Positions 1 to 64,000 of a DNA stretch of 64,000 bases are shown here, piece by piece. The notes under the pieces were generated by a model. It saw only the letters and a program-made list of their open reading frames with translations. It did not search any database and was not told where the DNA came from. The first letter of the stretch is position 1, and every line of letters begins with the position of its first letter. The stretch comes from Mytilus trossulus. Its lineage: Eukaryota. The DNA lies in the NCBI RefSeq assembly GCF_036588685.1, contig NC_086378.1, forward strand, positions 88,288,001-88,352,000, given 5' to 3'. A program made the translations under genes and the position numbers.

Positions 1-1071
1 ATAAATTACAAATATCTTACCTCTTTCTTCAGCTTAAACCAGAGGTAAATTACAAAGATCTTACCTCGTCTCACAGCTTTAACCAGAGATAAATTACAAA
101 TATCTTACCTCGTCCTTTAGCTTCAACCAGAGTTAAATTACAAAGATCTTATATCTTCCTTCAGCTTCAACCAGAGATAAATTACAAAGATCTTATATCT
201 TCCTTCAGCTTCAACCAGAGATAAATTACAAAGATCTTACCTCGTCTCTCAGCTCAAACCAGAGATAAATTACAAAGATCTTATATCTTCCTTCAGCTTC
301 AACCAGAGATGAATTACAAATATCTTACCTCGTCCTCCAGCTTCAACCAGAGATAATTTACAAAGATCTTACCTCGTCCCTCAGCTTAAACCAAAGATAA
401 ATTACAAATATCTTACCTCGTCCTTCAGCTTCAACCAGAGATAAATTACAAATATCTTACCTCGTCCTTCAGCTTCAACCAGAGATAAATTACAAAGATC
501 TTACCTCGTCCTTCAGCTTCAACCAGAGATAAATTACAAAGATCTTATATCTTTCTTCAGCTTCAACCAGAGATAAATTACAAAGATCTTATATCTTCCT
601 TCAGCTTCAACCAGAGATAAATTACAAAGATCTTACCTCGTCTCTCAGCTCAAACCAGAGATAAATTACAAAGATCTTATATCTTCCTTCAGCTTCAACC
701 AGAGATGAATTACAAATATCTTACCTCGTCCTCCAGCTTCAACCAGAGATAAATTACAAAGATCTTACCTCGTCCCTCAGCTTAAACCAAAGATAAATTA
801 CAAATATCTTACCTCGTCCTTCAGCTTCAACCAGAGATAAATTACAACTATCTTACCTCGTCCTTCAGTTTCAACCAGAGATAAATTACAAAGATCTTAC
901 CTCGTCCTTCAGCTTCAACCAGAGATAAATTACAAATATCTTACCTCGTCTCTCAGCTCAAACCAAATATAAATTACAAAGATCTGACCTCTTCCTTCAG
1001 CTTAAACCAGAGATAAATTACAAATATCTTACCTCGTCTCTCAGCTTAAACCAGAGATAAATTACAAAGAT
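1..1071 (-). repeat. 44-bp tandem array (~24 copies, truncated by window edge); the unit is the last 39 nt of tetraspanin exon 3 plus GTAAG
   Basis: Period 44 (ataaattaca at 1, gtaaattaca at 45). The minus-strand unit is ATCTTTGTAATTTATCTCTGGTTGAAGCTGAAGGACGAG-GTAAG. Confidence 0.95.
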
Positions 1072-4000
1072 CTGAAAACCACATATCATAATCACGAGAA
1101 TACCAAACTGAAAATTAAACAGAATGTAATTATACTTTTATGTATGAATATATATAGATAAGAAAATGGTTTTAAAGAAATTGGTCAATCATTTGAATTT
1201 TTATTTTTCAAATTTATTATCACTTGCCAGTTGCGGATGCTTCTTTGGTCGACAAAATAATAAATGATTATATTATGTTATTTAAAATCTTTCAAATTTT
1301 TCGCGGTATATAATCAGTTTTATTGAATTGAGCCCCCTTTCAAAAATTGTTTATTCGCCTTGCATGCTTCTGAATGATTACCATGGTAAATCTACATTCA
1401 TAGTTTTAATGTCAAAAAGAGCGAGTGGTTTAAAAAAGTCAATGAGTCCTCATCATAGTTCTAAGAGATTAAGGTAACACGCCATGATGTTCTTATACAA
1501 ACAATTTTATACATGGACTAGTAATAGATGACTAACCACAGACGTTTGATAGACATTGACAGATTTCAAATATTTATCTCAAAGATAAAATGGACACTAC
1601 AAATCAAGAATAAGATTTCAAGAAACCAATTGAGCAACTTCATTATTGGCTTTAAGACACAAATTATCAACGCTCTTTGATAAATCGGTTATCTAGGAAT
1701 ATCTGTAGTTTATATAACAGCATGAAGTAAAATCTTATGTTTTTCTATGGATATACATAATAATTCCTGTCCAATTCTATGGATATACATAATAATTCCT
1801 GTCCAATTCTATGGATATACATAATAATTCCTGTCCAATTCTATGGATATACATAATAATTCCTGTCTAATTCTATTGATATACTAGTACATAATAATTC
1901 CTGTCCAATTCTATAGATATACATAATAATTCCTGTTCAATTCTATGGATTTACATAATAATCCCTGTCCAATTCTATAGATATACATAATAATTCCTGT
2001 TCAATTCTATGGATAAACATAATAATTCATACATAGCTGACTTACCAAAGCCAATACTGGTACGGATCTGTAAAATATTCCTAAGAAACCTAACAGAGTT
2101 ACCAAGAACAGTATAATAGCCACAACCAGTATTCCTATAACGATCTTGGTGATGACTGATCCGACTGTAATATCGTAAGATATCGTCAACTGGTCAAACA
2201 GGACAAGAACATTGTTATCAGTGGCGATATCCCCAGATCTGTACAGAACAGCAGATACCACTATCAGTCCAATGGCCAATAACTTAAAAACAATCAAAGT
2301 GATTAAGGTCTGAACTCTAGATAGAATATATCTATATACAATAACACACATCATACCCGTAGCCAGGGGGTTTTGGAGGTTCGGACGAACACCCCCCCCC
2401 CCCCCCCCCCCCTTAAAAACAAATAAGCACTGTTAAAGTCAATGTTCTGTTCGAATTGTGACTGTTGAAGTCGATTTTGTGAGTCCAACGATCCCCCCCC
2501 TTTTTGGAAATTCCTGGCTACGGGCCTGCACATTATTAGTGAAAAAACTGTTTAGAGCTAAACATTACAAGTTTGCACTTCTTTTTAAGTGGAATGTGCA
2601 CATTATGAACATATTCGAGACTTTCATTATATGTATAAAACACAACAAGCAGCAACAAGATCCTTTATGTAAAAAATACCTTATACGAATCAGTAACATG
2701 TAGCTTTATTTAAGAATTGAATACTTCTTTTTGTAACTTTATTGGGGTGTAAAAGTGTTGACCGAAGTACATTTTGTATGAAGCGCGGAAGCGCTTCATT
2801 CTAAAAATGTGCGCGAGGTCAACGCTTTTACAACCCTATGAAGTTACAAAAAGAAGCATTCAATACTTATATAATTACATTTTTTAGCTATCGGATCATG
2901 AAAAACACGAATTTTATAATTTGTTTTTTTAATTCACCTGTGCACTTTATTTTGGAACCATACATTCCTTTTTATACTATAAAATAATCAACTCGACGAA
3001 ATATTAAAGCTTTCAATGAATTAATCTGTTCTTGGTAATTGAATTTGTAAAGTAAGATCTCACTACACAAATCCTTGGTTAAATAAAAATTATTGAAATA
3101 TTTATAGAAAATAAATACGAAAGTGAGAGAGTTCCTGCGTATATAAACTTATGAGAATACAATCTAATATCTTATAATAATTTGGCATCTTTTTCTCATT
3201 TAATCATGATGGCGCTACGGATCGTAACACCTTTAAAGTTACTATTTTCAACTTAAAACTTGACCCAGTATACCTTCTTCTTCCCTCCTTTAAGTGAGGA
3301 ACCGAATTCATATTAAATGTGTATGGTCCTGCGAAAACTTTCACAGTGTCGGGCAATACCGCTAGTCGTCTAATAGCTATTTAAGACATTCACCAATTTA
3401 CCGTAAAACTATGCTGTTTATTTCCTTCCAGAGCCTGCTTCCCAATCAATGGGAAATTGGATAATCACTTTCACTTATGAATATTGGCAGATTTTCAGAT
3501 TTTGAATTTATTTCAACACTTCGCTCCTTTTGACTTCCTTCGCACCCACAGGCACTTGTCTAAAAAAAAATCCTATATACCTTAATATAACAATTAAGGT
3601 GTATAGGATTTTTTTTTTGAGACAAGTGTCTGTGTTCGCACCCCTAAAATTCGGGCAATCCTAAAGCTTTATATTCCACGATATCCATTCCAATTTTAAA
3701 CAAGTCATCCGGACTATCAATTGAAACCTTTGAATTGTTATTTAGCGTACAGTGGATCCTTCCCTCTTTTGCTGATTTTACATTGGTCTGCTTTTTAATG
3801 TAAAAGAGTAGTCAGTTCTGATAATAATTTTGCACAGTGTAACAGTTGCTTCCCTTGTCATCTGCAGTTTTTGGAAATATACACTCTCTTCCGTTACAAA
3901 ATTTTCAAAGACATTTAATTTACCTCAAACTGCTTTTATTGTAGTATTTGGGTTTATAAATATGTATAAAACTGTAATGTTGAATTGATTAATAAAATAT

Positions 4001-6032: not shown

Positions 6033-6619
6033 CTTTCCCTGCAAATAATGAAAAATACAGACAAATTATTCAATTACGTACTTTGGTATGGAAAGACACT
6101 ACTAGTATAAAGGTCATAATCTAACTGATTGTTTGATTGATATTTTGGTCACTTTTGCTAACCTATAGGCCACTCATGTGGCTTAATCTACCAATTCTAG
6201 AGAGGAAGAAGCGGATACTAATCCTTGGCTAGCGAGGTGACAAACATTTGAACCTGGAAAAGTTTTGATTTTTAAAAAGTGCCTTAACATTTTTCTATGT
6301 GAGCAGGGTGTTTTGGTGTAGACAAAACTGTTCGTCTTGAAACGTCTTAGGTATGGAAAAACTATGATAATCGTTTCAGATATGGAAAAACTTAATTGGA
6401 AAATCGTTTCAAATATGGAAGAACTTGGAAAATCGTTTTAGACAAAAGATAAAAAGAATCTCTAGATTACAATTCAAATCATAATTCAAAGATTTATTCA
6501 TAGTCGGCATATTATACAACAAATAAACATAAGCTCTCTGATCTTTTATAACCGACAAATACATACATTTACATAATAATCATACAGAATACTAATATTA
6601 AAACATGAAAGACATAGAA

Positions 6620-14275: not shown

Positions 14276-14285
14276 AGCGGTCAAA

Positions 14286-17200
14286 ATGAATTTAGAACTT
14301 TTAGGTTTGTAAAATTATGAATTAAATGACAATCTACACAACTGTTTGGTAAGCAGGCATATAAAATACAAATAGGTACACTGTGTTTTTGAAAACTACA
14401 TTGCAATAGGAGTTTAACGCTGATGGTACAGCTTTTCGGATTCTGTCATTGTAAAAAATGTTTTGTTTACATCTCGAATATAATAGGGCTCTTCACGGTT
14501 AGTTCGGCCATATTGGATAGGGGGCAAAAATACGGGAAAACATCATAGAAACAGAGCAGTTGCTTGGAAACACACATAGGATTTCCCATACTTTCATACT
14601 ATTTCCACCTCTTTCTAAGAAATCTGCCCCCTATCCAACATGGCCGAACTAACCGTGAAGAGCCCTATTTTTACTGATCAAGTTAAAAAGCATAAAGATA
14701 TATCAGGACCGGATCCAGCCATTTCAAAAGAGTGGTTCCCAATCCAGAATAAAAGGGGAGGGTTCGAACCCCAGCACCTTCTGCATTTGTTCTGGATCTG
14801 ACACTGTATGTATGTATGTACAGACATGTAGATCCGAAACCGTAGATCCCACTGTTTACTGAGACCCCTCGAGATCTGTGAGGCTACAGTGAAATCCGTA
14901 TACACTTCCAATGGGTATTAATGTAGAGTAGCCACTATCATATTTACAATGTTTAATATGTACATATATGATGTAAAATGACAATTCCCACCCCAACACC
15001 AGGAAGAATTAGGAAAATGGACAGAATCTGTCATTATGGTGGAGAAAGCCGAAGTACGCGGGATAAGACAAAGCAAAGTGATTTCTGAAAATTGATCTCT
15101 AGGTCAAAGTTGGAAGCAACTTTGACCAACTGAGACCCCCATACAATTAATGTAGTATCCGTTCTACATTTGTAGTTTAAACTCAGGTCTGAGTTCCAGA
15201 GATGTGTATATCAAAATTTCCTGTTTCATGAAAAATAAAATCCTTTTTAGTCTATAAAACCAAAATTACAAAATGACAAAATGCATTGCATTCCTTGAAT
15301 GAATTTTTGTTTCTTTTAATTACAGAATCTTTTGGACAGAACTATCCAGAGGTGAGTTAATCTGTTCAAATATGAAATTGGGTAAATGATGTTTAAAAGC
15401 AGACATATTTTCTCCAAAGTTATATTGAAGTATTAAATTAAATTGTTATGCCCACATGTACAAGTGAGTGAAGGCAACAGGGAAATTAACCTTGACCTTC
15501 CCATTTTCATTTCTGTACTTTAACTTTAGTCATTTGTCAGTTTGCCTCATGCAAATTTTCTGAAATTAAATGGAATATGCTCAAAATAAAAATTAACCCT
15601 TTTTAAAGAGTTATGCCTCTTTATAAAATTGCAAATGTTTTCATATGTAAGTAAGTAAGTAAGTAAATTATTTATTATAGTGACATGTGTAAATTATGTA
15701 CAGATTATAAACATATAATATACAATGATATATGATCAATAGCAATACACCCGGCCCAATGGACCTATAAGTCACCTCAAATAAAGTAAAACAATTATAT
15801 CACGTTCTAATCGTTCGTTGACGTAAGTAAATTTCAAAAATATATAGACATAAAAATATTTGTAAACAAAAATTTAAGCTTTAAATATGTAAAAAAATTA
15901 AGTGTTATATAACAACTGACGTCTGATATGAAATGCATGAACTATATATTTTGCTAATTTTCTTATGTGGAAAGACATTAAAAAGTTCAATTTGTCAGCA
16001 TGATTCAAATCTGTGAAATTTTCCTCAATTAAAAGTTTACCAAAAAAGTTAACTCGACATTCAATATACAATGGACAATCAAACATAAAATGGAACTCAG
16101 TTTCAGTTTCTTGATTTTTACAAAATATACACAGTCTTTCTTCTACACTTTCGTTTGAGTATCTACCAGTTTCCACTCTTAATGGTAAAATTCCACTTCT
16201 AAATTGCGCTAAATGTGACCGCTCAATTTTACTCAAGTTCAAATTCACATAATTTTCAGTTTCAAAGACTGTTTTAAAGTTCCTATATGTTCGTAATTTT
16301 GAAACGTCTTGGACGGAATTCCTCCATATATCTGAATACAGACGAACAATGTTAGTTTCAACCAAAGATAAATCGACCTCTGATTTCAGTTCGTAAAAAT
16401 GTCCTAGTTCAAGCTGGTCTAGTATATCCTTTACTTCACTACACCAGTTACTTTTACAACGATCATAGTCAATATTGAATGCTAATTTGGTGATGCGGTT
16501 GTTGTCAAATCGAATGAGTCTATTCCAGTATCTCACCATATTGATCCAACGCCGATACTGACTCAGGATCCAGCCGATATCTCCGTGTATAGCAAGGATA
16601 GGTGCAAATCTGTGTACTCCTAAATAGTAACGAATAGCCCTGTTCTGAATATTGTCTATTGACTGATATTTTCGGTATCCCCATACACCAGAGTCAGACG
16701 AATAATCAAGTATATGAACAATACATGAGTTGAATAATTTTTCATATGATTTATATCCAAAGTCCTTAATATTATGAATTTTAGCAATTATATTCCCAAG
16801 TGCTCGTCCGCCACTTTTCGCAAGAAGATCCACATTTGGCAAAAAACTGCCGTTGTAGCTAAATGTTATACCTAAGTATTTGTACTCGTTAACTAATTCC
16901 AACTGGTTCCTGCCCACGGTGAAATTAAACTCAGTTTGTTTCGATTTCCCTTTCCTAAAATGAATACATATGTGTATAATAACTAACAAACGCATACATA
17001 ATGCTAAAATGTAAGTTAACAAAATTGGCACTGCCAATTTGGCAGTCAAAATTCAAATTTAAGCAGTGAGTCACTTATCGTTCTAGAATTATGCCTCTTT
17101 TTAACTTTTTAAAATAGCAAAGCTTGAGCTGTGGCATTCCTGACCTCAGACACATTCTTCTTTTATTATTGTAAATTTAACTAAAAAAGGAGATTTAGAG

Positions 17201-20200
17201 CATGTTATCAGATCACACAAGAAAGATTATTATTTGTCAAGTACAAATGTAGTTCATTGAAATGTGTAGTTTTAATAAAAGATATACCGGTATACATTTG
17301 TATGTCTGTATTTTAAAAATCTGAAATGATAAAAATTATTTAAAATTAAAAGTTGTGCAGTTTTACAGCTATGACCAAAAATGATGACATTACCAGAACT
17401 ATAGTTATTACAAAATCATTTTACTTGGTAAAAAAACAACTTTGTAAATGTTTGTGTTAAAGTACATTGTACATTTTTTGTATTTGTTGTACATATACGT
17501 GTACATAGATTTTGGTTCACTGTCGATTATTATCAAGCTGTTTTCAGATTTGCAAAGATTGAGCCTATGCAAGATCAAGGTTGATAATTCACATCAGTGT
17601 TTTAAATAATATTAAAACAGTATCATGAGTATGTCTCATATATATTTACATGGTTTATGTACATGATGTACAAAATGTATTTGCTTGTTATTCCCTGCTC
17701 ATGTTTTTCAACACATACTTTAAATATACAATGTACATGTATATACATTATATACATTTTATACTGTAAAATCTTTGTGATATTTACAAAATCTGAAACA
17801 CTTTTCAGCTCTAAGAATAGAACATCTGCATGAACATGAACCTATCCATCATTTTAAATCAAAATTTAGATGATTTTGTAGCATAGGCGGAACCAGGGGG
17901 CCCACCTTTTGTGGGGAAAATTTAGTTGATTATATGGGGAATCACTGAAGCGTGACTGGAGTGGGGCCCACCTTAGGTCAGTCAGCAGGCCCCCTTACAA
18001 AAAGTTCTGGATCCGCCACTGTGTAGGACTTTATATTTTTAAGAAAAGTATGGATTCTCCTTGTTTTATGTACAAAAATGATGTACAAGCTTACACTATC
18101 AGAATAACAAACATAATTGAGATATCTTTCTTTTTACAAATTCTTGACAGGAATCTCAGTATTATTGGATGAATACATTAACTACATGTAGACCATAAAC
18201 AACAAAATTATTTTTTAATACAAAGAAACATCATCACTTGATCATATATATTTTTATTGGCTATATTTTTAGTGACAGGCCTTTAAATAGAACCTTTTTA
18301 GACATAGCATTTTTCCTTGTTTTCGTTTTTGATTTTGATTAATAACATGTATATATTCAGTATATTTGTTTACATTTATTGTGTACATGTCATTGTTTTT
18401 TTCCCCACAGGAATTTGATGGAGCATTAGATTGTGTTAGTATAGCTATAACATGTGCATTCAATAGACATGGGACATTATTAGCAGTCGGTTGTAATGAT
18501 GGACGTATTGTTGTGTGGGATTTCCTTACAAGAGGGATTGCTAAAATCATCAGTGCTCATGTACATCCAGTGTGTACTTTGTGGTATGTATCAAATATTT
18601 TTTATCAACTACTGCACCTAGTTAATTGTCGTTCTGAAATTAAAAACCTTTTGGTTGTAGATTTTGTATATATATTATATAAGTCTAAAAAAAACAGCAC
18701 TTTTGGACGATGGTTATATACCAAAAAGATGTTATAAAATCGAGATGACAAATTTTTCAGCTTAACAAATAACCTTTAACAGTGTCTATAATTTTATCAA
18801 AATAGCATTGATATATACAGTTTTTTTATAGTTTTTTTTCAATTAACACCAGTTATTGAAATATTACTATCATGCTTTGAATATGCACATGATATTTGAA
18901 TACATTTTTAACAAATATTAATTTTTCAGTTGGAGCAGAGATGGACATAAATTACTGAGTGCAGCGACAGATAATACAGTATCAGTATGGGATGTAGTGG
19001 AGGGGGAGTGTGATAAAACATACAGATTTCCCTCCCCTATCCTTAAAGTACAATTCCATCCTAGATACAGGTAACTAGATAACAAATCATACATGCTAAG
19101 AGACATCTTATAAAAAAAGTGGTTTCAAATTTTCTATCAGTGCTTTTTCCATCTTTGTGTGTTAGAAATAATTTGAAGATGAATATTGATATGTTAGGAT
19201 TTTTTTAAGCCACATTACATTTTGAGTTTACTGTAGCTCAAAAGTGAGTTAACTTTTTTTGTAGAACACAGTTTTTAGTATGTCCAATGAAACATCCTGC
19301 AGTTAAAATGGAGATTGATGGAAAACACTCAGTTATTCCCCTTGATGATGATGTAAGTACTAAGTTATTCCCCCTTGACTATGCTATTAGTATATAGTTA
19401 TTCGTCTTACAGCACATTTCAGTCAGTATGTAGCTAATGGTAATATCTTTGGTTAGCTTGCTTGTTAGCTGAACCGTGAAGTCACTGCAAGGTAAGGTAA
19501 ATTTCCCTCCTTTAATAGTAGACTTGCCCAACTGATAAAAAATGTATCTCTCTGTAGGACTAAGCTACTATTAAAGGAGGGTAGTTTACCTTACCTAACA
19601 ATAACTTCACGGTTCAGCTAACAAGCAAGCTAACCAAGATATTACCATTAGCTACATACTGACTGAAATGTGCTGTAATGACGATGTATATTTACAACTT
19701 TTTGTTATGAATGATTGATCATTTTGATTTTTAGAGTTATTTCCCTTTTAAAATGCAACAGTGAAAAATTGATTCAAACAAAATCAGAAAGTTGGTATAA
19801 ACAATGAAAATAATGCAATGAATCACTTATTATTCTTTATTTCAAATGAAAAAAATCCTTCAACATATATTGACAATCTGTCTCTTTTGCTGATTTAGGT
19901 AAAGAACTAGACCAATTGTGTTTCGCTATTTTACAATCTAAGTATACAGTTTATGTCATGCATATTACAGTTAAAACAAAATTAACAATAAATCCAATTG
20001 GTAGGTTTATTTACATGCAGAGTTTGTCAAAACTACAAATTAGATATCCAAAGGAAAAAAAAACCTTCTATCAGTCCATTAATATCAGTGTCAACAAAAA
20101 CTAAAAAATGCATAGAAGTCAAATTTTCAGTCTTTTATTGTCTTTTTTTTCTTCCTTTGTAGTCAGATTTAAACATCGTTGCATCATATGACAGACGAGG

Positions 20201-41300: not shown

Positions 41301-44300
41301 CTGCTGTCATTAGGGAATTGTCAGTAAGTACCTACAGAGCAACCATTATTTCTAGTTTATCCTGCACAAAGACGATCACTAAGACGCTTGTTGAACGTAA
41401 ATAGTGCAGGGATACAGGCGACCCCCTCTATCTGGTAAATGACGTCATAAAGGCGTGCATAATTGAAGAGTTTTTGCCGGTGAAGGATGAACTCGATAGT
41501 GGTCTATTCAACTGGAATTTGAATAACAATTGGGTGTGAACTCAATTAGGGGGCGAGCGTGTGATGTGTGAATGTATAGGGTGTGAACTCAATTAGGGGG
41601 CGAGCGTGTGATGTGTGAATGTATAGGGTGCGAATGAGAAGTGATACCTTCACTCAAACCACATTCTTATCAAAGAACTATTTAAAATGAAATTGTTATT
41701 GTGCTCCTTCCTATACTTTTTTAAAACTGATAAATACATAATTTATATATGTCTCACCATCATGACAAACGAGACCAGACATTTCTTTCTTCCAGATAAA
41801 TTAGAAGTTATCAATTTTGAGTTCGCTAGAAGATTTTATAAAAATAATAAAAAAAAATCTACTGTGTATCATTTTGTAATATTCCTTTACTTGCATTTTT
41901 TGTTGTCCCATGATGTTAAAAAAAAAAAAAAAATATTTTGAAAATGGATCTATTTATTCTCTTAAAGTCTGTTTGTTATTTAAAAAATAATAAAACACTT
42001 TTAAATGATATTTTACAAAATATTAATCCATGAAATAGTGTCTCAATGCATCTGGATGATCTCCCTTTAACCAGTGACAGTCAAATTCAAAATTGTCTAT
42101 CTATCAAAAAGACCAAATTTCATATTGAAAATTGTCCTACTCAATTAACAGTTATTTACGAAAAATAATTGTACGTCAAACATATTGACATAGAAGCACT
42201 CTACTTTTAGCGCAGTGAATATACTTTTTCAGTAGGTGAATGTGCTTTTATTCAAATTTTTTAAATTTTACGTCTTTAATTTATGTTGTGGTAATTTGAT
42301 CTTTATAAAAACACACAAATGTGTAAGCTCTATTAAGAATAACCCCATGCCAAATATTGTTGCACATGGAATTTTTATCACATATTATTATTGTTATCCT
42401 CATTTTGCATGTTTTGATCACATTAGGGATACTACAAATGTGCCTCAATGAAAATTTTCTCAGAATTATAAGGATGTTCCTGTATAAAAGAACACTGAAA
42501 CATGCTGAACAAAATATATACTGAAGTATTTACACATCCTACTTTCAAATTTTCAGATCTTTATTTCCATGTGCAGGTGGTAGTATATATATAAAAAAAT
42601 ACCAATTTTTGTACACATATTCAAATGCCTATTTTATGTTCATTTCAGAGCCGAATATGGAGCATTCTGGAAGTGTGTACAGGCTGGAGGAACCTACCTG
42701 TTTACACAGTTATGCAAGATGTTAATTTTGGCGACATTTTTCCCTGCCACTGAAGTATCAACAGGCTTGGATGTTGTTGGGGTAAGTACAACTTTGACAG
42801 AATATTCCAGGACGTTGTTTGAATTAAGTAGTACATCCACAAAAGTATTGACAGGACTAAGTATAAGAGAAACAGTCACAGTACATGTATCTCTACATGC
42901 TTGTATGTTGTATGAACCTGACTGATACATTTCACAAGCACAAAGAATTTTAGATATAGCACTTTTTACTGTGAAAGAAATAATTTCTTCTTGGCTGAAA
43001 CTAAAGTATTTAGATTTCATGGTCTTCTCTAATAATGGAATTTAGTGCATTTTTATGTACCAAACAAAATTAAAAAAAAATTGTGTTAATTATGGAACCA
43101 GAAATTTAAAACACCACACAATTTAAGTACTTACTATCACAGTATGTGTTCCTTCTCTTTAAAAAAGGGAACACTGCTTTCTCTTATTCTTTATACTGTG
43201 GATTCATTTATTTTTCAGGGATTAAAAAAAATTGCATGATCTTGAATACTTAATTTCATGGTTTTTATACCACAGTCTACATACAATCCTATTCATTGAA
43301 CCTTGATTTCGTGGTTCACCTGTATCCATGAAATACACAAAAATTAGGATCCAAATAATAATAAATCAACAGTAATTAGTCGATTTTTTGTTGATTTTGT
43401 ATGTATTGGTGAACTTATGCAATGGTCAAATCTATATTCAGCTTTCTCAGATCATCTATCAAACTTTGTCATCTTATAATTTTTTTCCCTGAAAACCTAC
43501 ACATTATCCATGCATTATTTGTGAAAGTTATTTTGTTTGAAATTTTGTTAAATTACACATTGTTACAGTACAGATGAATAATATAAAAAAGAAGATGTGA
43601 TATGATTGCCAATGAGACAACTATCCACAAAAGACCAAAATGACACAAACATAAACAATTATAGGTCACCGTACGGCCTTCAACAATGAGCAAATCCCAT
43701 ACCACATAGTCAGCTATAAAAGGCCCAGATAAGACAATGTAAAACAATTCAAACAAGAAAACTATGTTCTCTGCAAAATGTGTATATGTACAAAACAAGG
43801 CCTTTTTAAAGTATTTACCAAGCATAATTTTACAGTTCAACTCATTCCTTTATTCCACACTTGATCACATACTGGGTGTGTTTGGATATCTATAGGTAAC
43901 ATATAGACAGAAAATAAGTAAACCTTGGTTAAAATGTAGACAATCCACGGGCTACCCATAGGTTTTGCTTTAGAACATGTTGGTACCTATGGTTTGCAAA
44001 GCAATTCCAAAAGATTTTTTATCACCTGTGGCTATTAAAATTAAATTTAATGATGAATTTGACTCAAATGGAACTCAATGTCATGGCATAACTCTCTACC
44101 ATTCATATGAAAAATGCACAGCAGATATTGTTTTTTTTGACAACAAAAACAATTTACCGTATAAGTACACAAACAACACATAGAAAATTAAAGACTAAGC
44201 AACCCAACCCCCACCAAAAACTGGAGATGATCTTAAGTGCTCCGAAAGGGAAAGCAGATCCTGTTCAACATGTGCCACCCATTGTGCAGTTCATATTAGT

Positions 44301-47300
44301 GTAAACCCAGTATTAAGACTAATTGGGTAAGTTTCTACCATGTTTGTGACTAATAATTTCATTTAACCATACTCTTAAATATGGGTAGGAATGGCAACCT
44401 ATAGTAAGTAAATGAAAAAAAACTGTGGGTAAACCCTAGGCACAAAAGGTCATCCATGGTCAGATTTATTTCTCGAAATAACTAACCATAGGTACCTAGA
44501 GCTACATATAGGTAACCATAGAACGCATTTGGCGTATATCCAAACACACCCATATATATTGCAGTATCAATCTTATATGATATGTACATATAAGGTGATA
44601 TCTTAATCATTATATTAAATATCTTTGTGAAATGTCTTCTAAATCTTAAGATTATTTTTTTCTGTAGGAATTCATGAAGTCAACAGTAGATTTTGCAGAC
44701 TTAGTTGGTATATATTTTGTAATGTCTAAAATAGCAGGAAAAGGACAGCTTAAATTTATGGTGGCAGGTCTGGGATGGGCAACGGCAGAACTCTTAGTTA
44801 CAAGGTAATAAGAAAAAATTGTTAAGTTGAGCACCTGCAGAACTCTTGATAATAAGAAAACAATGTACATGTACATAATGTTCTTAAAAAGGGGGTGTTT
44901 ACAGACAAGCTTTATAATCATAAAATTTCTTAGTCATGATATTTACAAAGATGAATGCTTCAAGCATATTTTTTTTACAATTTAAAAAAAATTGAAATAT
45001 ACATTCTCCTTTTCAATGTAGTTCTTCATATTTTTACTTTTTAACTGGATTTTTGTGACAAAAATGTCCGTTATTGATTTGGGGATGTACGGCAGGCAGG
45101 CGGGCTGGCGACAATCAAATGTTGTCCGTGCATTAACTCATGAACCGTTCAACCAAAGCTTTTAAAATTTTAATATGCTGTTACTGACAATTCAATGAAG
45201 GTCAAGTTCAATAATGGCCATTTTCACTTTTATTGTTCAGGAGTTATGGTTCTTGAAAGATTGAAAAATGGAGTTTCTAGTCTTGTCCGTGCATTTACGC
45301 ATGAACTGTCCTACCAAAGCTTCCCAAAATTTAATATATTGTTACTAATAACAAAATGGACGTCATGTTTAATAATGACGATTTTGACTTTTACTGTTCA
45401 GGAGTTATGCTTCTTAAAAGATTGAAAAATGGTGTTTCCAGTCGTGTCTGTGCATTTTCTCATGAACCATTTAACCAAAGCTTTTGAAATTTTTATATGT
45501 TGTTACAGATGACAAAATAGAGGTCAAGTTTAATAATGATGATTTTGACTTTTACCGTTCAGGAGTTATGGTTCTTGAAAGATCGTAAAATGGCGTTTCC
45601 ATTAACGTTGTTGCATTTACTCATGAACCATTCAATCTAATCTTTTCAAATTTTAATATGTTGATACTGACTAAAAAATGGAGTTCAAATTTGATATTGA
45701 CGATTTTCACTTTCACCATTCATCAGTAATGGTTCTTGTGATATTGCCAGAACACAAATAAATGTTATTAAATCCGTTTTGCTGTCATTGTGACAGCCTC
45801 TTGTTTTGTATATCCCCTGCTGCCAAAAACTTTTTATATATAAAGGCATCACCATATCTGTCTATCCACACATGTTTGTGCACACAATCACCCCTAGTAA
45901 ACAGCTGGTCAGATGTTGAGGAAACTTTACACAGTTGTAGAAAACTACCTTATGATGTGCCAAAAGGAATATTATCTTGGTCTAAACATGTTAAAGGGGA
46001 GATAATCCTGGTCTAACATGTTAAAGGGGAGATAATCCTGGTCTTACATGTTAAAGGGGAGATAATCCTGGTCTAACATGTTAAAGGGGAGATAATAAGA
46101 TTCATATCTGTAATATTTTTTGAAGCGCTTAAAAAAAATTGTGGCATATTTCATTTTGTGTATCACATTTTAATCAAAAATAGTATTTCCCCGAAAAGGT
46201 AATTACATTATAAACATATTTCAGAATATTACCTTTATGGGTTGGTGCCAGAGGAGTAGAGTTTGACTGGAAATATATACAGATGTGTTTTGAATCTAAT
46301 ATTAATTTGGTAAGTATGGAAAGTCTTGCTCACATAGATTTTGATACGTGGTGCATAGCAGGGCATAAAAAAATATATATATATCTTGTTGCATTTAAGC
46401 ACTTAAAAAAGTCTGAACTTGACCTGATCTTTATGGTTCAATGGTCAACATTAACTTGATAAAGGTTTCGTAATTAGATATGTTTCTCAGATGCTATAAG
46501 CAATAGGCTAATTATATTTGGTGAATAGTATGATTGTAAGTTGTAAATGTCTGTCTTGGTTATACTTGAAAATATTAAGCTGATATTGGATAACTTAGTA
46601 TAAAACATAATGATGACCTATGCATCACAATTATGTAAGCTCCTTTTAATTTTTTATAAAATTCTGATATGACATAAAGAGGTAATGGAAATTCTTTTTT
46701 TGAAATTGCGATGGGCATATCATGCTCTCATGATGCAGCTTTTTATTTGCATTTTGTTCTGGTTCACTCGGGTTGATGAACTTGCTGCAAAAGAGGCAGG
46801 GACATTTTTGTTGTACTAGAATGTCTAGCTTACATAAGGATTAAAAGCTTTAAGAAAACTGACAATAATTGCTCTCTTCTTTCCCAAAGATTTTTACTTT
46901 TTACAGTACTTGTATTTCTAAACATTGTTAATAATAAATACATAATTTATCTACAGGGACATCATATGTGTTTGGCTATGTTAGTATGGTTATACAGTAG
47001 AAATGACCTTCAAAAGACATATGTTCCTATAGTGATGACCTTGTTAGCACTAAGTTGCTACAGACCACTTATTGTAGAGTAAGTATTCTAAATGGTTCAA
47101 TGGGATGACGTATTAAAGATAAGCTTTTATTGCAAAGTGTAAAATTACAAAATATAAAATCCAGAAATACATCAATAACCTGAACTCAATTGAATGACCA
47201 AAATATTTTCTGAACATATTTTTTTCAAGCCTTATAAAATCCCAAGTTGTTTGGCAAATATGAATCTTTCCAGACCAGATGAATTCATTTATTTCCGTGG

Positions 47301-49845
47301 GTTCCAACTTTCGTGAATTAAGGACAATTTAGAATTTTTTGAAATACTAAGGCTTTTATACCTCAGGCATAGATTACCTTAGCTGAATTTGGCAACACTT
47401 TTAGGAATTTTGGTCCTCAAAGCTCTTCAACTTCATACTTTATTTGGCCTTTTTAACTTTTTGGAATCAAGCGTCACTGATGAGTCTTATGTAGACAAAA
47501 CGCGGGTCTGACATACATCAGGGTTTTAGCTAGGATTTTGAGGGCTTTAGTCACTTTTGCGCGTGATAAAAATCAGCCTTATTTTTTTATAAAGCAAGGG
47601 ATCTAGGATGTTTATCAAACTAGCTATACATATATGTCCAAGTCCTTCAAGGACTAGTCTAGGATCTTTGAAGACTTTAGGATTACTAATGTAGGCAGTT
47701 ATTGGCCATATTGAATGAATTGACTGATGTGATGCTAAGATATGAAGATCAGAACAGGAATCTGGTAATATGGTCAAAACTTCACTTCAGTTATTTTCAG
47801 GGCACACCCCTTATCAACAAAAGTTGGGTGCCTTTTTTTTTTATCCACTGCACAAATGAACTTGTAACGACTTTTTCACTTCACAATCAATTATATCCTT
47901 GAAAATACGTTTTGATATCTATTTGGAATCAATTTCTTTAATATTGGATAGCAGGATCTGCATCTATACTTAATGTGACGATTCTAATGACTGTAGACTG
48001 TAGATCACGTTTACTTTCGATCTTAAAACGAAATGAAATGAAAACGGGAAGTGACAATTGATTAATAATTTCAGAATAAAACCGGATTCATCTACGAACT
48101 TTTACGCATGCGCAATGCATAGAACAGGAAGCACCTGTTTGCAAGTGAAAATATTTTCGTTTTGAATAAAGTTCATTCTTTTTAAACGAAGTTGTCGAAA
48201 GTTTTTGATGAATATTTATATGAAGTATGACGAAAATACGTTGAAATGACGAAACTACGACAAGAAAACTGCAAATTATGATCGTAAGGGAAATATTGAA
48301 ATTAAAATAAAGTTGAAATGTCCGGGAAGTTTATCAATTTTGTTCAAATGACGAAAATACGACTGAACTGTGAGAAATGATTTAAATGAAATGCTGACTG
48401 ACTGATTTATCTTAAATAGATTATCATGATGGTCATTTATGAGGTTTTATAATGATAATTAAGGGATTAGTGACCCTTCTGATTGGCGATAAGCGGATTA
48501 CTTGTCATCACAACTTTTAACACCTTTGGTTAACGTTAATTACCTGAGGGTCATAAACTTGTCACAAACATAAAGACAGGTAGAATGATCACTTTCCAAA
48601 TTTAAGTGACGAAATTGATATGAAATATTTTCGTCATTTCGAAAACCTTTTCGTAAAATACGAAAGTGACGAGCGCTAGCTAAATCACTGCATACATACA
48701 AATTTTAGTTCTGATATCTATGATGAGTTTATTTACATGTTCGTGGATATATAATTTTGTGGATTTGCTGAAGTATGCTTACAAGCCTATAGGAAATTTT
48801 CTATTCTATGAACATTTTATTGCGTGGTTCCCATATACCCACAAAATCCAATGAAAATTGGTATCCATTGAATAATAGTGAATCTACAGTATTTGAGATA
48901 TATGTTATAAATATCACAACAAAAATTTATTAGGAAAAAAATCATGTCCTTAGGTCTTCCTTTAATTTATCCTTGCAAAACATTTTATTTTTGTACAGTT
49001 GTTATATTAGAAAATATTTGACTGTGGTCCAAGTGTTTGTTGAATATAACAACTGATCAGTGATTTGGAAGTTGTCCAAAACATTGTAGGAAATTAGAAT
49101 GAGATTTAGGACAGATACTTAACTAACGTGTATGGATCTATCAACGGTAGCCAGATACCTGTTTTTGTTTACTACATGTAATGATACATGTATGTGTATA
49201 TGTTCAGGTGTTTTGATTGGCTGATGAAATAAGGACAAGACCACGGATATAAGATTTGAATTTCCTTCACCTCTTAATCAAGCTGATCCTTTACCTTACA
49301 ACTTAGAATTGTTTGTTTACTTTATAACACAATTCAGGAAATCATGCTGTATGTTTGTTTGAGTCTCCAGCTAATGAGATCATTATCATTATAAATTGGC
49401 AGCTGGTTTAAGGAAGTGATATACCATCTTCCTATTAAGACTACTAAGTGGTATTGTAATTCAGAACATAGATATATGTTTTTTTCTCATGTTTTTCACA
49501 CTAAGGTTCACTGTTGTTTTTTGTTTTTTTTATCAATTTATGCAATAGGAAGTTAGAAGCAACAAAAACAACTTGCCTTGTAAATCTTGTTTGTATGTTG
49601 AACTTTCATAATTACATTCATGTATGTGGCTCAATTACAATGATACATACATTTGATAATTTCTATATTTTCAGTATACAATGATATGATGCATGTTTTT
49701 ATTTTTCAGAATTTTAATCCATGCAGTTGGCCTAGGATCATGGACATTATTAGCAGCCAAAGCTTTATTTACAACAACAGTTGGGGTGATTGGACTTCAG
49801 ATATTCCTAACAATGACTGTACAGACATCTAATAACCATTACTAA
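38383..49845 (+). CDS. TMEM147: Transmembrane protein 147 (BOS complex subunit, ER multipass translocon), 229 aa
   Basis: Exons 38383-38459, 42649-42781, 44668-44804, 46225-46309, 46957-47078, 49710-49845 (GT-AG, phases consistent, 690 nt). [14 protein letters not shown]...[13 protein letters not shown]...[14 protein letters not shown]...[19 protein letters not shown]. Confidence 0.97.
38639..39080. mobile_element. MITE with AT flanks, copy 1 (left subterminal region diverged)
   Basis: TIR agac(a/c)actttcgagttca / tgaactcgaaagtggtct; the body aligns with 41116-41505. Confidence 0.8.
40721..41004 (-). ncRNA. Retrozyme-like repeat beginning with a type I minimal hammerhead ribozyme (41004-40966)
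   Basis: Minus strand: A CTGATGA GTCT TTTGT AGAC GAAA CGTGTG TC^TGGCT. The catalytic core boxes are intact; the stem I 5' strand is truncated. Confidence 0.7.
41116..41505. mobile_element. MITE with AT flanks, copy 2 (390 bp, long imperfect TIRs)
   Basis: agaccactttcgagttcatcc.tcaccgg / ccggtgaaggatgaactcgatagtggtct. Confidence 0.88.
41533..41630. repeat. Two-copy ~46-bp tandem duplication
   Basis: gggtgtgaactcaattagggggcgagcgtgtgatgtgtgaatgtata x2. Confidence 0.8.
45040..45808 (+). mobile_element. HINE-like element with ~4 internal ~160-bp tandem repeats, in TMEM147 intron 3
   Basis: aactggattt...aaatccgtt subTIRs, (GGCA/GGCG)n microsatellite, repeat anchors at ~45181, 45341, 45502 and 45664, and a 3' hairpin gctgtca..tgacagc before a T-run. 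Confidence 0.75.
45984..46096. repeat. 30-bp tandem repeat (~3.7 copies)
   Basis: aacatgttaaaggggagataatcctggtct. Confidence 0.9.
47326..47518 (+). ncRNA. Retrozyme-like repeat ending in a hammerhead motif (47471-47512, G12>A); resumes at 48698-48737 after an insertion
   Basis: GCGTCA CTGATGA GTCT TATGT AGAC aAAA CGCGGG TC^TGAC. Stem I GTCA/TGAC and stem II GTCT/AGAC. The body matches the 40721-41004 copy. Confidence 0.7.
47519..48690. mobile_element. 1.17-kb non-autonomous DNA transposon with CAG termini and a 7-bp TSD
   Basis: TIR cagggttttagctag / ctagctaaatcactg; TSD catacat at 47512-47518 and 48691-48697; repeated subterminal tgacgaaa motifs. Confidence 0.8.
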
Positions 49846-49880
49846 TGAGATTAACACCTTGTATATGGAGTGCCTAGAAC

Positions 49881-59241: not shown

Positions 59242-62200
59242 ATGGAACTGTACGCAAACACGACAGAATACAATTTCGACGATCCATGTTATGAAAATGG
59301 AGACACTCTAAAAGAAAAACAAAAACTACGATTCGATGATTATCACAAAAACGACACAAAAACGGCGCCTGTGTCTAAACGTTATAAATTTGTTGGTAAC
59401 TTGTATGATACCGAAGAAAGTTTAAAAGCAGAAAGAGCTACTCGTTCTGTTCGAACATATAGTTGCTGTTGTTGTTTTCTTGGTTTTACATTAGGATGTG
59501 TATTTGCGACTAGCGTCTGTGTCTTGGTGTATTATTTTGTATTGCCTTATTTAGTACCGTCACCAAAAGGTATGTTGCATGGTTATTATTTTTCTTATTT
59601 GTTATTTTTTACTTGTTGTTTAGAACTGTATAATTTTTGATTCACCAAATGGATATTTTAATAAACAACGCTCTAGTATGCCACGCCTCGAGATCTTAAT
59701 TTATAAAAATCACAACACGCACCAGACAAATCACAAAACAATTTAACAACACGTTTACTGATGTTTTAAGTCATAATGAGGGGTTTAACATCACAAAACA
59801 ATTAAACTATACTTTTACTCCTGTTTCAAGTCAGACAAAAACAATGAAACAACACTTTATTTACTGTCTTAAGTCACGCTAAAACCATTAAACAACACTT
59901 CTGTACTTCTGTTTCAAATCGCACAAAAACCATTAAACAACACTTCTGTACTTCTGTTTTCAAATCGCACAAAAACAATTAAACAGCACATGTACAGCAG
60001 TGTCGCTGTGAGCGCTCCAACGTAGAGTGATTATTTAAGATAAAACGAATAAGAAATGCTGAACCAAAATCGAATCTATTTGAATAATGACGAACTTATT
60101 TAGTAAATATTCAAATCATCTAAAGTCCACTTCATATATGGCCAGTTGTATCCTGATTTTATTTGCACTGCATTCTTCCTTTTCTACTTATCTTTCGATA
60201 ATTGTTGGTATTGTTCATGAAATCGGAGTCAGTGTAGATAGAGTGTCAAAGTATCAAACTTATAAAGGAAACACGTCATCGTATATCCTGTCTGAAAACA
60301 GTAAAATTGATAATCATAAATACACAATCCTAGGGGGGTTTGACGAACCCAAACAGAAAATTGATCACAAATAAATATTGTCCGATCAAATATGCATTGC
60401 ATAATGATTTTAATTAAAAACTGTTTAACGGTGATTTATGATAACAGCATGACCTATTGGCCTGTCAAGTGATATGATTTCATTGACCGTAAAAGGTTTT
60501 TTTTTTTTAGCGGAATCATGTATATATATTTTTTTATGTACATGTATCCTTTGTGTATCGGCTAAAGCACATGAATTATGTTATCTACTTCCCCCAGATA
60601 TGTGTGCAATAATTTCCAAATATTTCTATTAAACTCCGTGGATGATAGCCTTGTATTTTATTTAATTCCTGTTGTTAAGTCAGCCCCACAAATGTATAAG
60701 AAGAAAACTATTTTCTTGTTATATTGCTCAGGATTCCATTTCGAGTTTTTAGAGTTATAATACAGACCAGAGGTCGAACGACTATTTGTTTTTGGGTTTA
60801 CACTCATCTTTTTTGGTTTTTATATTACTGAAAAATTATTACATAAGAATTTGCGAAAGTATCACAAACTAGTCAAAACAATTGCCAAATTTAATCATCG
60901 GTACAAGGACATCATTCGTATAAAGCAGACATCTTATACGTTAGGTATTTCATATCCAATATTTTTATGGTAATATTCTATACAAAGCACAACAATGTCG
61001 CCATTCACCCCAAAAGCTAACCAAACCTTTAAACAGAATTATTCAGAACGGACATAGTTACTTATAAAATTGAGAATGGAAAAAGGGAATGTGTCAAAGA
61101 GACAACAACCCGACCAAATAAAAAAACAACAGAAAAAGGTCACCAACAGGCCTTCAATGTAGCGAGAAATTCCCGCACCCGGAGTCTTTCAGCTGGCCCT
61201 TAAGTAAATATATACGTATATTTTTTGGACACTTTAAAGCTTACTGTTCGGTGTGAGCCCTAGCTCCGGTGTTGAGTATAAAAATGGCATATTTTGGAAT
61301 TAATATTGATTCACTCTTATATCATGTATATGATATAGGACCTTTGCATCGGAAGTAAAACACGTGTATTCTAAAACTGGTTGTTGGCATGATACGGGTG
61401 CTGAGCGTTTGTTTGACCTACATTGGCTAAAGGTATAGGCGTAGGGCTGAGATATCACAAAACAGGTTTAAACCACCACATTGTTGTACCTGTCCAAGGT
61501 CTTTTAATAATTAGTCTTGCATGTTTTATTTTTATTTTAGTACATTTATATGTTTCTGAGTTAATTGTGAAGTTCATTTTCACTGAACTAGTAATCATTT
61601 TAGTTAAGGGGCCAGCTGATGCCCGCCTGCCCTCCAGTTGCGGTATTTTCTCGCTATGTTGAAGACCCATTAGTCGCTATGAGCTGTTTTCTGCTGCTTC
61701 GTCGGATTGTTGTCTCTTTGGCAACAAAGAGAGATTACAGAATTTCTTTTTATATTGAGTTTAATCATGTCTACTATTTTCAGGTACACAACAGATTGGA
61801 TGTTTAAAAGGCTGGGAACGATACAAAGGGAACTGTTATTTTTTCAGCAAATTCAATATGTCATGGACTGACGCTCAGGTTAGTAAAGATTAAAACCGTC
61901 AATTATGATATACATGTTGTTTAAAATTGAGAATGGAAATGGGGAATGTGTCAAAGAGACAACAACCCGACCATAGAAAAAACAACAGCAGAAGGTCACC
62001 AACAGGTCTTCAATGTAGCGAGATCTTTCCCGCACCCGGAGGCGTTCTTCAGTTGGCCCCTAAGTAAATATATACGTATATTTTTGGGACACTTTATAGC
62101 TTACTGTTCGGTGTGAGCCATAGCTCCGGTGTTGAAGGCCTTACTATGACCTATAAAGGTTGACTTTTACAAATTGTGACTTGTATGGAGAGTTGTCTCA

Positions 62201-64000
62201 TTGGCACTCATACCACATATTCTCATATCTATAGACAATAAATACAGGAAAGGTGAAATAGAAAATTAATAATATTAATTGCTGATTCTTTGTCAAAATG
62301 TAATAGTTACCTTTCTATTATACTATAGACACATATTCATAATAAAATGAATTATGTTAACCAAATATGAAAACAGATAACCTTAATCGTTTGCGTATTT
62401 ATTAAATCAAACAAATAAGAAAGTGCAAACTAATATTAATTATCTTTTACTTAGTTACCTGCATTTCTTATACATTATTATGTAGTTAAAAGAATGACAA
62501 GTTTTCTATATTTAAGAAAAAATGCATGCTTTTATAAATATGCTTAAACAATGAAAATGTCTTTATGTAAAAGAAAGATTTTCAAATGTGTTTTTAAACT
62601 GAGTGTATTTTTTATACAGACAAATTGTACCAATATGAAATCCCAGTTGACGGATATAGAGGACCAAGAAGAGGCTCTTTATTTTGCATCATTGACGAAC
62701 TATTTTATAGGCAAGTATTTTTCAAAATAATCTCGTTCACAAAAACTCATAATTTGTTATTTTGAAAGCTGGAAAACATAGAATGATTAAATTGAGAACA
62801 TTAAGAACTATTTTCGTTTCCCATTTCCTCGTATTACTTTTTTTTATCCCATTTCTCTCGTTCAATCTTCGTAAACTTTTCATGTACATTTTGAATGCTC
62901 GTGATTCTTAACACATACATCGTCTGTGTGTATGTGCGTTACTGGCGATCGGGAAACACTTACCATATCTAAATATAGAGGACGACTGTTTGATATCTTG
63001 GGGGTGAGGTGGGAGTGGCAGTAGAATTGTTTCAATAATTAATCCAGAGTAGATGATTTAATTATTTTACGTTCCCTAAAGTCTAGGATTATTATCATAA
63101 AAAGGTTAAAATTGTCTCATTGGCAATCATACCACATCTTCTTTTTATATAAGATGCTGGTTTTACAATAAGGCTGATACTGTCTGAGCCTTCTTTTGAA
63201 AAGAGGTGGTAAGACCAATTTCCCCTGAGTTAATAACACTCGTGACTGATTTAAATACAAATATAGATTCTCAAGAAGTGAACTTGCAATTCGCGGGTCT
63301 TGTAAACTAATTCGAAAACAGTTTTAAAGAAAAAAAATACTAGAATTTCTTATTAATTCGTAATGTATGGAATTTCTTATTAATTCGTAATGTATGGAAT
63401 TTCTTATTAATTCGTAATGTATGAAATTTCTTATTAATTCGTAATGTATGGAATTTCTTATTAATTCGTAATGTATGAAATTTCTTATTAATTCGTAATG
63501 TATGGAATTTCTTATTAATTCGTAATGTATGGAATTTCGTATTAATTCGTAATGTATGGAATTTCTTATTAATTCTTAATGTATGAAATTTCTTATTAAT
63601 TCGTAATGTATGGAATTTCGTATTAATTCGTAATGTATGAAATTTCTTATTAATTCTTAATGTATGGAATTTCGTATTAATTCGTAATGTATGGAATTTC
63701 TTATTAATTCGTAATGTATGGAATTTCTGTTTCAGGTGATGATGCATGGATAGGCGGAAGAGGAACAAATATTAGTAACTTTAAGTGGTTTACTGGTGTC
63801 CATGGCAGTATTCCTAAGGTCATGAACTTTACATACTGGGCACAAGACAAACCTTCATCATTAAAAATTGGAAAACAATTAAATTCTTCCCCGCCAATAG
63901 AGAATTGTGTTCTTGTCTGGAAACAGAAGAATTACAAATGGACTAATGAACAATGCTCGAAAGAAAAACCATTCATATGTAAATATGTATATAATAAATG
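59242..64000 (+). CDS. Type II transmembrane C-type lectin domain protein (3' end at or just beyond the window edge)
   Basis: Exons 59242-59569 (cytoplasmic tail plus TM), 61784-61878 (GCLKGWERYKGNCYFFSKFNMSWTDAQ), 62620-62710 (TNCTNMKSQLTDIEDQEEALYF, GC donor) and 63736-64000 (AWIGG...FTYWAQDKP...ENCVLV...YKWTNEQCSKEKPFICK). Long-form CTLD with six Cys; phases consistent. Confidence 0.9.
60825..61400 (+). mobile_element. Decayed Penelope-like element fragment, interrupted by a repeat at 61065-61275
   Basis: Fragments read YHKLVKTIAKFNHRYKDIIR and FYGNILYKAQQCRHSPQKLTKPLNRIIQNGHSY, resembling the post-RT region of mollusc PLEs. Recognised by eye. Confidence 0.45.
61065..62135 (+). repeat. 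~210-bp direct repeats (61065-61275 and 61922-62135) flanking lectin exon 2
   Basis: Both copies share the same composite junction (...gctggcccct taagtaaatatatacgtatattttt.ggacacttta.agcttactgttcggtgtgagcc.tagctccggtgttga). Confidence 0.85.
63342..63728. repeat. 27-bp minisatellite (~14 copies) ending 7 nt before the lectin last-exon boundary
   Basis: Unit gaatttcttattaattcgtaatgtatg. It generates the spurious ORF 63340-63768. Confidence 0.95.

What the first reader, a model, noticed from the sequence alone, without database searches (positions are those of the whole stretch)
1..63735. Window-wide pattern: tandem duplications are anchored at splice junctions in four of the five genes
Seen: seven tandem duplications touch or abut splice sites. 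They are 1-1071 (includes donor), 1743-2027 (just after a donor), 19331-19690 (donor, 3 decayed copies), 24348-24423 (exon start duplicated), 27957-28907 (before acceptor), 49636-49709 (acceptor duplicated) and 63342-63728 (branch-point zone). They range from decayed doublets to fresh 24-29-mer arrays. Inference: a mutational process biased to exon-intron boundaries (R-loops, splicing-coupled repair or nucleosome edges) may repeatedly seed minisatellites in this lineage, and could feed intron growth, intron sliding or intron gain. I do not know whether this has been described.
Basis: inference. Interest (0 to 1): 0.72.

Follow-up and report, generated by a model that had tools for sequence, protein, structure and literature searches.

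The report
Mussel exon-edge "mirage" repeats
Six tandem repeats in three mussel genes overlap or lie within 42 bases of an exon edge; the three that overlap it are of a kind already known from lancelets, humans and chickens and are likely harmless by-products of local DNA duplication, while a true preference for exon edges is only weakly suggested by this one window.

Summary
Six of the seven listed repeats are real. Against 59 canonical splice sites in five mussel genes, three span a junction: a 44-base array of at least 24 units in a tetraspanin, and two decayed copies in RBBP5. Three more end 7, 17 and 42 bases from a site. The seventh (49636-49709) does not beat controls (shuffle P 0.11). 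Enrichment is borderline: 6 of 13 within 50 bases against 2.0 expected (P 0.008), but P 0.06-0.07 under two other nulls, in a window chosen after the fact. The type is known: lancelet "mirages" (with the intron-gain idea already proposed), human F7/CBS repeats, chicken "exon stuttering". An RNA-like run splices normally past the 44-base array, which DNA runs under three organism labels share, with a 4-base microhomology at its ends. Best reading: ordinary local duplication, tolerated by splicing, likely lasting longer beside exons. Nothing points to R-loops, intron sliding or gain; arrays do lengthen introns. The scan noted this repeat type before, in this genome and others.

The parts
1..1073 (-). 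44-nt array, at least 24 units (runs off the window): last 39 nt of a 75-nt tetraspanin exon plus the first 5 intron bases. 17 units keep GTAAG (authentic one included), 1 has GTCAG, 6 have lost the GT; a block of about 9 units appears twice
   Evidence: present in 3 of 3 DNA runs laid
1033..1107 (-). Tetraspanin 75-nt exon; authentic donor at 1032/1033
   Evidence: P0001 maps here; RNA-like contigs join it to the exon ending at 2046 and to the next exon outside the window
1743..2028 (-). 32-nt array, 8.8 copies, wholly intronic, starting 17 nt after the donor at 2045/2046; no GTRAG in it
2046..2282 (-). Tetraspanin exon 2 (first coding exon at 5961-6032)
19316..19403 (+). Decayed 33-nt repeat of the end of RBBP5 exon 19265-19352 and its donor; second copy has lost the GT
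19410..19675 (.). Inverted-repeat element (MITE-like, TA on both sides) inserted in the third copy, which resumes at about 19678-19695
   Evidence: very high depth of matching contigs
24322..24423 (+). 49-nt doublet spanning the RBBP5 acceptor at 24396/24397; the upstream copy lacks the AG
27954..28907 (+). 36-nt array, about 26 copies, intronic, ending 42 nt before the RBBP5 acceptor at 28949/28950; 58% of its intron together with a 33-nt neighbour
49636..49709 (+). Possible very old doublet of the last TMEM147 acceptor; not above control, unconfirmed
63343..63728 (+). 27-nt array, 14.3 copies, over the branch-point zone, ending 7 nt before the lectin acceptor at 63735/63736; contains no AG, giving a 390-nt AG-free zone (median 33 nt over 29 acceptors)
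14286..29620 (+). RBBP5 gene, 16 coding exons (host)
   Evidence: open 506-aa frame; WD40 hit; gene name recalled from the protein sequence
38383..49847 (+). TMEM147 gene, 6 coding exons (host of the unconfirmed case and of four counter-examples)
   Evidence: DUF2053 hit; gene name recalled
59242..64000 (+). Type II membrane C-type lectin gene, 4 coding exons (host)
34138..38001 (-). CFAP126/Flattop gene, 5 exons, no array at any of its 8 sites (negative case)

Best explanation
These are unrelated local tandem duplications, three of which copy an exon edge ("mirages"), that likely start by misaligned copying or repair between short direct repeats, likely grow by unequal exchange, and likely survive because splicing keeps using the site next to the intact exon. 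Shown: the arrays, their geometry, a 4-base AGAT repeat at both ends of the 44-nt unit, a repeated multi-unit block, and normal splicing across the tetraspanin array. Inferred: splicing acts as a filter afterwards, not as the cause. Any excess near exon edges likely reflects longer persistence: the seed copy is held by selection on the exon, deletions and element insertions turn over intron interiors faster, and exon homology may keep alleles paired for unequal exchange.
For: Units share no sequence between loci and have periods of 27-49 nt. The far end of the 44-nt array, read from loose ends in 3 of 3 DNA runs, leaves the unit right after the same AGAT with which it begins inside the exon. 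The 27-nt array begins and ends on the same 7 bases. RNA-like run X15 has contigs joining exon 2046 to 1107 and the exon end to the next exon; P0001 and P0002 carry one copy of the exon end. Use of any of the next 7 donors would hit a stop four codons after the authentic site. Filter signs: AG absent from the upstream 49-nt copy, GT absent from the second 33-nt copy, no AG in the 386-nt array beside the lectin acceptor (25.5% of intronic 27-mers are AG-free, so this is weak). Persistence: the 44-nt array and its far end are shared by runs under three organism labels; contigs under two labels cover the 33-nt copies and the element's left end. Published cases behave the same way.
Against: A pure filter cannot raise density above the intron interior, so an excess, if real, needs the persistence step, which is untested. 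No empty allele was clearly seen, so the origin step is inferred from one set of flanks. 16 decoy GTAAG donors remain intact, so decoys are not quickly purged. X15 also holds array-unit contigs at depth 4-10 while the upstream intron (1114-1190) has none; collapsed pre-mRNA or DNA would explain this, but some use of later donors is not excluded. Contigs cannot formally tell which near-identical donor was used. The RNA label of X15 is the tool's guess.
Confidence: 0.55

Rival explanations
1. No enrichment at all: a repeat-rich, intron-dense genome puts some arrays near junctions by chance, and this window was singled out because it looked striking.
For: Own-intron null P 0.063, circular shift P 0.071, spanning-only P 0.055, 100-nt cut-off P 0.062. 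Length-weighted, junction probes are no more often self-copied than intron positions (8 of 59 against 11.2%, P 0.34). About 1.9 of the 236 windows with notes would reach P 0.008 by chance; if 40% of intron interior is too young to host arrays P becomes 0.059. One of seven cases fails its control.
Against: Seed-placement nulls give P 0.005-0.008 at 50 nt and 0.004-0.007 at 20 nt. The 53 junctions without a listed array still show 4 self-copies at score 22 or more against 2.0% of controls (P 0.02 at that cut-off, 0.12 at 24). Two of 30 introns hold exon copies above all 932 distal controls and a third is in the top 1.4%.
Confidence: 0.3
2. One reading: a process tied to transcription or splicing (R-loops, splicing-coupled repair, nucleosome edges) makes duplications preferentially at exon-intron boundaries.
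For: Near-junction arrays include three wholly intronic ones at 7, 17 and 42 nt, which a copied-exon model does not need. Exon copies occur in 2-3 of 30 introns here, against 3.4% of introns on the most affected chicken chromosomes (PMC12954441, different screen), in DNA of about 31% GC. Ebner et al. call the origin of mirages unclear.
Against: Array edges do not coincide with splice sites; donors and acceptors are both affected, at different offsets. Unit ends follow microhomology where testable. No strand, expression or R-loop evidence exists here. One gene of five has no case and 7 of 13 genic arrays are far from sites.
Confidence: 0.12
3. The arrays are kept because they regulate splicing (decoy donors tuning output, a lengthened AG-free zone) or seed new introns.
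For: 17 strong donors in the tetraspanin array; a 390-nt AG-free zone in the lectin intron; human 6-16 and CBS use one or two extra donors.
Against: Later donors give a premature stop; spliced contigs and both proteins carry one exon end; 6 of 24 units have lost the GT and the RBBP5 copies are decaying, one with an element inserted. No gained or shifted intron was shown.
Confidence: 0.03

Closest known systems
Amphioxus "mirage" minisatellites (Adh3, troponin C, globins BflGb6/BflGb9, PGBD5); PMC3087553 passages, PMC3902484 one passage
   Same: Tandem copies of an exon-intron boundary on either donor or acceptor side, units of tens of bases, many keeping splice signals, normal splicing, and a proposed role in intron gain.
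   Different: Here a mollusc; three of the six arrays are wholly intronic and so are not mirages; those passages give no statistical test of enrichment.
Human boundary-spanning minisatellites: F7 intron 7 (37 nt), 6-16, CBS intron 13, lamin B2, PDGF intron 4; PMC1557585 abstract and introduction
   Same: First unit spans the donor, followed by up to 25 look-alike donors; the most upstream one is used, as in the 44-nt tetraspanin array.
   Different: The mussel unit is mostly exon (39 of 44 nt); donor choice here rests on contigs, not on constructs.
Chicken "sequence stuttering" and "exon stuttering"; PMC12954441 passages
   Same: Local intronic expansions of unique sequence, some copying an exon edge with its splice site (236 introns, 1-44 copies, median exon part 36 nt), inflating introns.
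   Different: Tied there to GC-rich dot chromosomes and treated as a subset of general intronic expansion; this window is about 31% GC. The passages seen do not test excess near junctions.
Internal tandem repeats at exon-intron boundaries of human duplicated genes; PMC2812944 part 1 of 6
   Same: Repeats at boundaries can change gene structure and create introns (27 intron modifications).
   Different: No new intron or isoform was shown in this window.

Membership tests
Mirage / boundary-spanning minisatellite | Head-to-tail unit contains both exon and intron sequence of the host gene's own junction | tested here: met
   Met for 1-1073, 19316-19403 and 24322-24423.
Mirage / boundary-spanning minisatellite | Same feature, for the three nearby intronic arrays and 49636-49709 | tested here: not met
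   1743-2028, 27954-28907 and 63343-63728 hold no junction (17, 42, 7 nt away); 49636-49709 is not above control. These are not filed as mirages.
Mirage / boundary-spanning minisatellite | Extra copies lie in the intron; the copy continuous with the exon is intact | tested here: met
   All reading frames open across the three junctions; copies diverge by 1-8 of 44 bases from the exon copy.
Mirage / boundary-spanning minisatellite | Many copies keep the splice signal | tested here: met
   16 decoy GTAAG in the tetraspanin array; the two RBBP5 cases have mostly lost it.
Mirage / boundary-spanning minisatellite | Splicing uses the authentic site | tested here: inconclusive
   Tetraspanin: spliced contigs and two proteins fit one exon end, but contigs cannot rank donors. 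RBBP5 joints were not among the rows shown.
Mirage / boundary-spanning minisatellite | Copy number varies between alleles or individuals | tested here: inconclusive
   Summed depth over the unit is about 36, 62 and 128 times the exon contig in three DNA runs, but the tool states that this is no copy number.
Avian exon stuttering | Exon-edge copies in the adjacent intron above distal controls | tested here: met
   2 of 58 proximal exon-intron pairs exceed all 932 distal pairs; a third is at the 1.4% tail.
Avian exon stuttering | GC-rich chromosomal setting | tested here: not met
   GC 0.26-0.40 in every 1-kb bin; it works like exon stuttering but is not filed under it.
Intron gain by tandem duplication (Rogers model; mirage model of Ebner et al.) | A new intron whose two ends derive from duplicated exon sequence and which orthologues lack | not testable with these tools
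   No orthologous genomic DNA could be fetched. No intron here shows exon-derived copies at both ends.

The most novel reading that the evidence does not exclude
Mussel genomes generate new tandem duplications preferentially at exon-intron boundaries, by a transcription-, splicing- or recombination-edge-linked process, so that about a tenth of introns carry exon-edge copies in AT-rich DNA; this would make mirages a genome-wide mutational signature and not a lancelet or bird curiosity.
Probability: 0.13. Interest if true: 0.7.

Novelty: new member of a known kind. Interest (0 to 1): 0.3.

Why it matters
As single loci these are ordinary examples of a known repeat type. The open point is quantitative: none of seven literature searches returned a genome-wide test of whether tandem arrays crowd at splice junctions in a mollusc. 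Annotated Mytilus genomes would allow a cheap test that also separates biased origin from biased survival. The arrays add to intron length, can mislead gene prediction and primer design, and the 44-nt array is a natural test of donor choice in an invertebrate.

Tried and rejected
No whole genome was held, so no genome-wide test. A scan of metagenome contigs with a mussel repeat, meant to give independent DNA, found 3 loci of 6.6 kb in all, too little to use. Reads laid on 2035-22034 were swamped by dispersed repeats: no RBBP5 joint was among the rows shown, so RBBP5, CFAP126, TMEM147 and lectin sites rest on open frames, Pfam hits and, for the lectin, P0003. Lenient TRF settings gave about as many hits on shuffled DNA as on real DNA (80 against 55-74; 169 against 153-174) and were not counted. 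A 36-nt doublet 6 nt from the first tetraspanin donor (5881-5954, score 96, 2.7 rows expected at 90 or more in shuffles) was not accepted. 49636-49709 was dropped from all counts. Dropping the 161-nt element-borne array or the 12-mer lowers P to 0.002-0.004, but this is a choice made after seeing distances, so the 13-array figure is the one reported. Six cut-offs and four nulls were tried without correction. An origin from spliced cDNA is rejected for the spanning units, which contain intron sequence in genomic order. Untranslated-region introns are unmapped (an RNA-like contig has about 460 further 5' bases of the tetraspanin) and could move a few of the 7 arrays outside coding spans closer to sites. 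PMC4039745 (passages) concerns a dispersed worm minisatellite and does not bear on this. No supplements were read; those of PMC12954441 may hold a distance analysis.
Full report
Setting. The window is AT-rich animal DNA (GC 0.26-0.40 per kb). A public protein labelled Mytilus trossulus matches the tetraspanin exons at 5961-6032, 2046-2282 and 1033-1107, so this is a mussel. I built five gene models by hand; all translate without internal stops and all 59 splice sites are canonical, one donor being GC. Pfam supports tetraspanin (weakly, E 0.027), WD40, CFAP126, DUF2053 and C-type lectin; the names RBBP5 and TMEM147 are recalled from the protein sequences. The map has 29 complete introns and one that runs off the window.

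What is there. TRF at score 50 gave 34 rows, merged to 20 arrays; 13 overlap introns. Three span a junction. At 1-1073 the 44-nt unit is the last 39 nt of a 75-nt tetraspanin exon plus GTAAG; of 24 units in the window, 17 keep GTAAG, 1 has GTCAG and 6 have lost the GT, and a block of about nine units recurs, as unequal exchange would give. At 19316-19403 the end of an RBBP5 exon and its donor are present in decayed copies; a third copy is interrupted by a 266-nt inverted-repeat element with TA on both sides. The self-inverted match extends a few bases into those flanks, so part of the third copy's likeness may come from the element. At 24322-24423 a 49-nt doublet spans an acceptor and the upstream copy lacks the AG. 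Three arrays are intronic but close: 17 nt (1743-2028), 42 nt (27954-28907) and 7 nt (63343-63728). The remaining seven genic arrays lie 128, 225, 293, 317, 403, 1014 and 1749 nt from a site.

Is it more than chance? With arrays collapsed to one unit and seeds dropped anywhere in genic DNA except wholly inside exons, 2.0 of 13 are expected within 50 nt and 6 are seen (P 0.008); within the own gene, 1.8 (P 0.005). Within the own intron, leaving out the open one, 5 of 12 against 2.4 (P 0.063). Shifting the splice map round the window gives 6 of 20 against 3.0 (P 0.071), and nothing at 10, 20 or 100 nt. Spanning arrays alone give 3 of 13 against 0.9 (P 0.055) (all). A semi-independent look at the 53 other junctions found 4 self-copies at score 22 or more against 2.0% of 4910 intron controls (P 0.02), fading to P 0.12 at score 24; taking all 59 junctions against all 5730 control positions, which weights by array length, there is no excess (P 0.34). 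If 40% of intron interior were too young to host arrays, P would be 0.059, and about 1.9 of the 236 windows with notes in this genome would reach P 0.008 by chance. The fair verdict is a suggested two- to three-fold excess, unproven.

Outside evidence. Reads were laid on 1012-1190. In run X15 (RNA by the tool's guess) one contig runs from the exon into the upstream exon ending at 2046, and another leaves the exon end into sequence that translates as the next exon of P0001. P0002, from a 1.5-kb contig of a relative, also carries one exon end. Any of the next seven donors would give a stop four codons past the authentic site. All three DNA runs, under three organism labels, hold array units and the same far end, where the last unit stops after AGAT, the same four bases with which the unit starts inside the exon. 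So the array likely began as a duplication between two AGAT words 44 nt apart, and it predates or crosses the split of these labelled organisms. Against a clean picture, X15 also holds unit contigs at depth 4-10 with none over the upstream intron, so low use of later donors is not excluded; one X15 contig reaches the far flank from a well-matching unit, which may be a last unit or an allele without the array.

How it likely works. Step one, inferred from one full set of flanks and the 7-base repeat bounding the 27-nt array: misaligned copying or repair between short direct repeats makes a doublet. Step two, inferred from the repeated block: unequal exchange lengthens some doublets. Step three, partly shown: splicing keeps the donor nearest the upstream exon or the acceptor nearest the downstream exon, so copies are removed with the intron; versions that would add a competing AG are likely lost (the 386-nt array next to the lectin acceptor has none; 25.5% of intronic 27-mers are AG-free). 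Step four, untested: arrays beside exons last longer than mid-intron ones, because the seed is held by selection and intron interiors turn over by insertion and deletion; this would give a modest excess with no special mutagen.

What is known. Ebner et al. (PMC3087553, passages) describe tandem duplications of exon-intron boundaries in lancelet genes, named mirages, note normal splicing and an unclear origin, and propose intron gain from them; PMC3902484 (one passage) adds PGBD5. Borensztajn et al. (PMC1557585, abstract and introduction) list five human genes and show use of the most upstream donor in F7. De Grassi and Ciccarelli (PMC2812944, first sixth) report boundary repeats that form introns. 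PMC12954441 (passages) reports exon stuttering in 236 chicken introns, 3.4% of those on GC-rich dot chromosomes. A similar screen here gives 2 of 30 introns above all 932 distal controls and a third near the top. Seven searches of an open-licence library returned no genome-wide enrichment test for molluscs; subscription papers are not covered. The name mirage and its papers came to me as leads from the scan's earlier notes; those notes list many such arrays in other pieces of this genome, which I did not check and do not count as support.

Verdict. Observation partly confirmed (6 of 7 real, 3 spanning, 3 genes). Interpretation partly supported: introns do grow by these arrays (6-58% of nine complete introns), the excess is borderline, and mechanism, sliding and gain are unsupported. 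New members of a known kind; interest 0.3. The bold reading, a junction-biased mutational process, has about 13% probability and would deserve 0.7.

Noticed in passing
window 44786-44865 (+): Possible further decayed copy of the TMEM147 donor at 44804/44805 about 52 nt downstream, with a short deletion; shuffle P 0.01 but only the 7% tail against distal controls.
   Followed up: partly
window 24819-24898 (+): AT-rich near-copy of the sequence just before the RBBP5 acceptor at 24898/24899, about 55 nt upstream (score 27); intronic only.
   Followed up: partly
window 19353-20162: This RBBP5 intron, whose donor is triplicated, may have no counterpart in human RBBP5, where I recall one exon of about 163 nt for the 88 + 72 nt exons here. 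Recalled, untested; its ends do not fit gain by duplication of an AG-GT site.
   Followed up: no
window 37975-38459: CFAP126 and TMEM147 start head to head, about 380 nt apart, suggesting a shared promoter.
   Followed up: no
window 58004-58184 (+): Exon-like stretch encoding a cysteine-rich, hydrophobic segment like that of the lectin's first exon and followed by GTAAG: a possible alternative or relic first exon.
   Followed up: no
window 52238-55236: 3-kb array of a 32-nt unit (93 copies, 77% matches) outside the coding spans, interrupted at about 53190-53365 by other sequence; preceded by a decayed 147-nt repeat at 51801-52199.
   Followed up: no
window 30339-31235 and 45122-45746: Two arrays with units of about 160 nt, likely carried inside dispersed elements (likeness to known bivalve element types is recalled, not tested).
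   Followed up: no
window 15898-17052, 13654-14001, 25699-26219, 55333-56365: Fragments that look like the 3' ends of LINE-type retroelements; one has a weak zf-RVT hit.
   Followed up: no
window 62710/62711: GC-AG intron in the lectin gene, the same intron that holds the AG-free 27-nt array.
   Followed up: no
window 2706-2874, 3547-3634, 5308-5403, 6619-6703, 9393-9467, 14482-14669, 32066-32257, 57095-57354: Many short inverted-repeat elements.
   Followed up: no
P0001: The tetraspanin is 457 aa, with a long proline- and tyrosine-rich tail after the fourth membrane segment, encoded outside the window.
   Followed up: no
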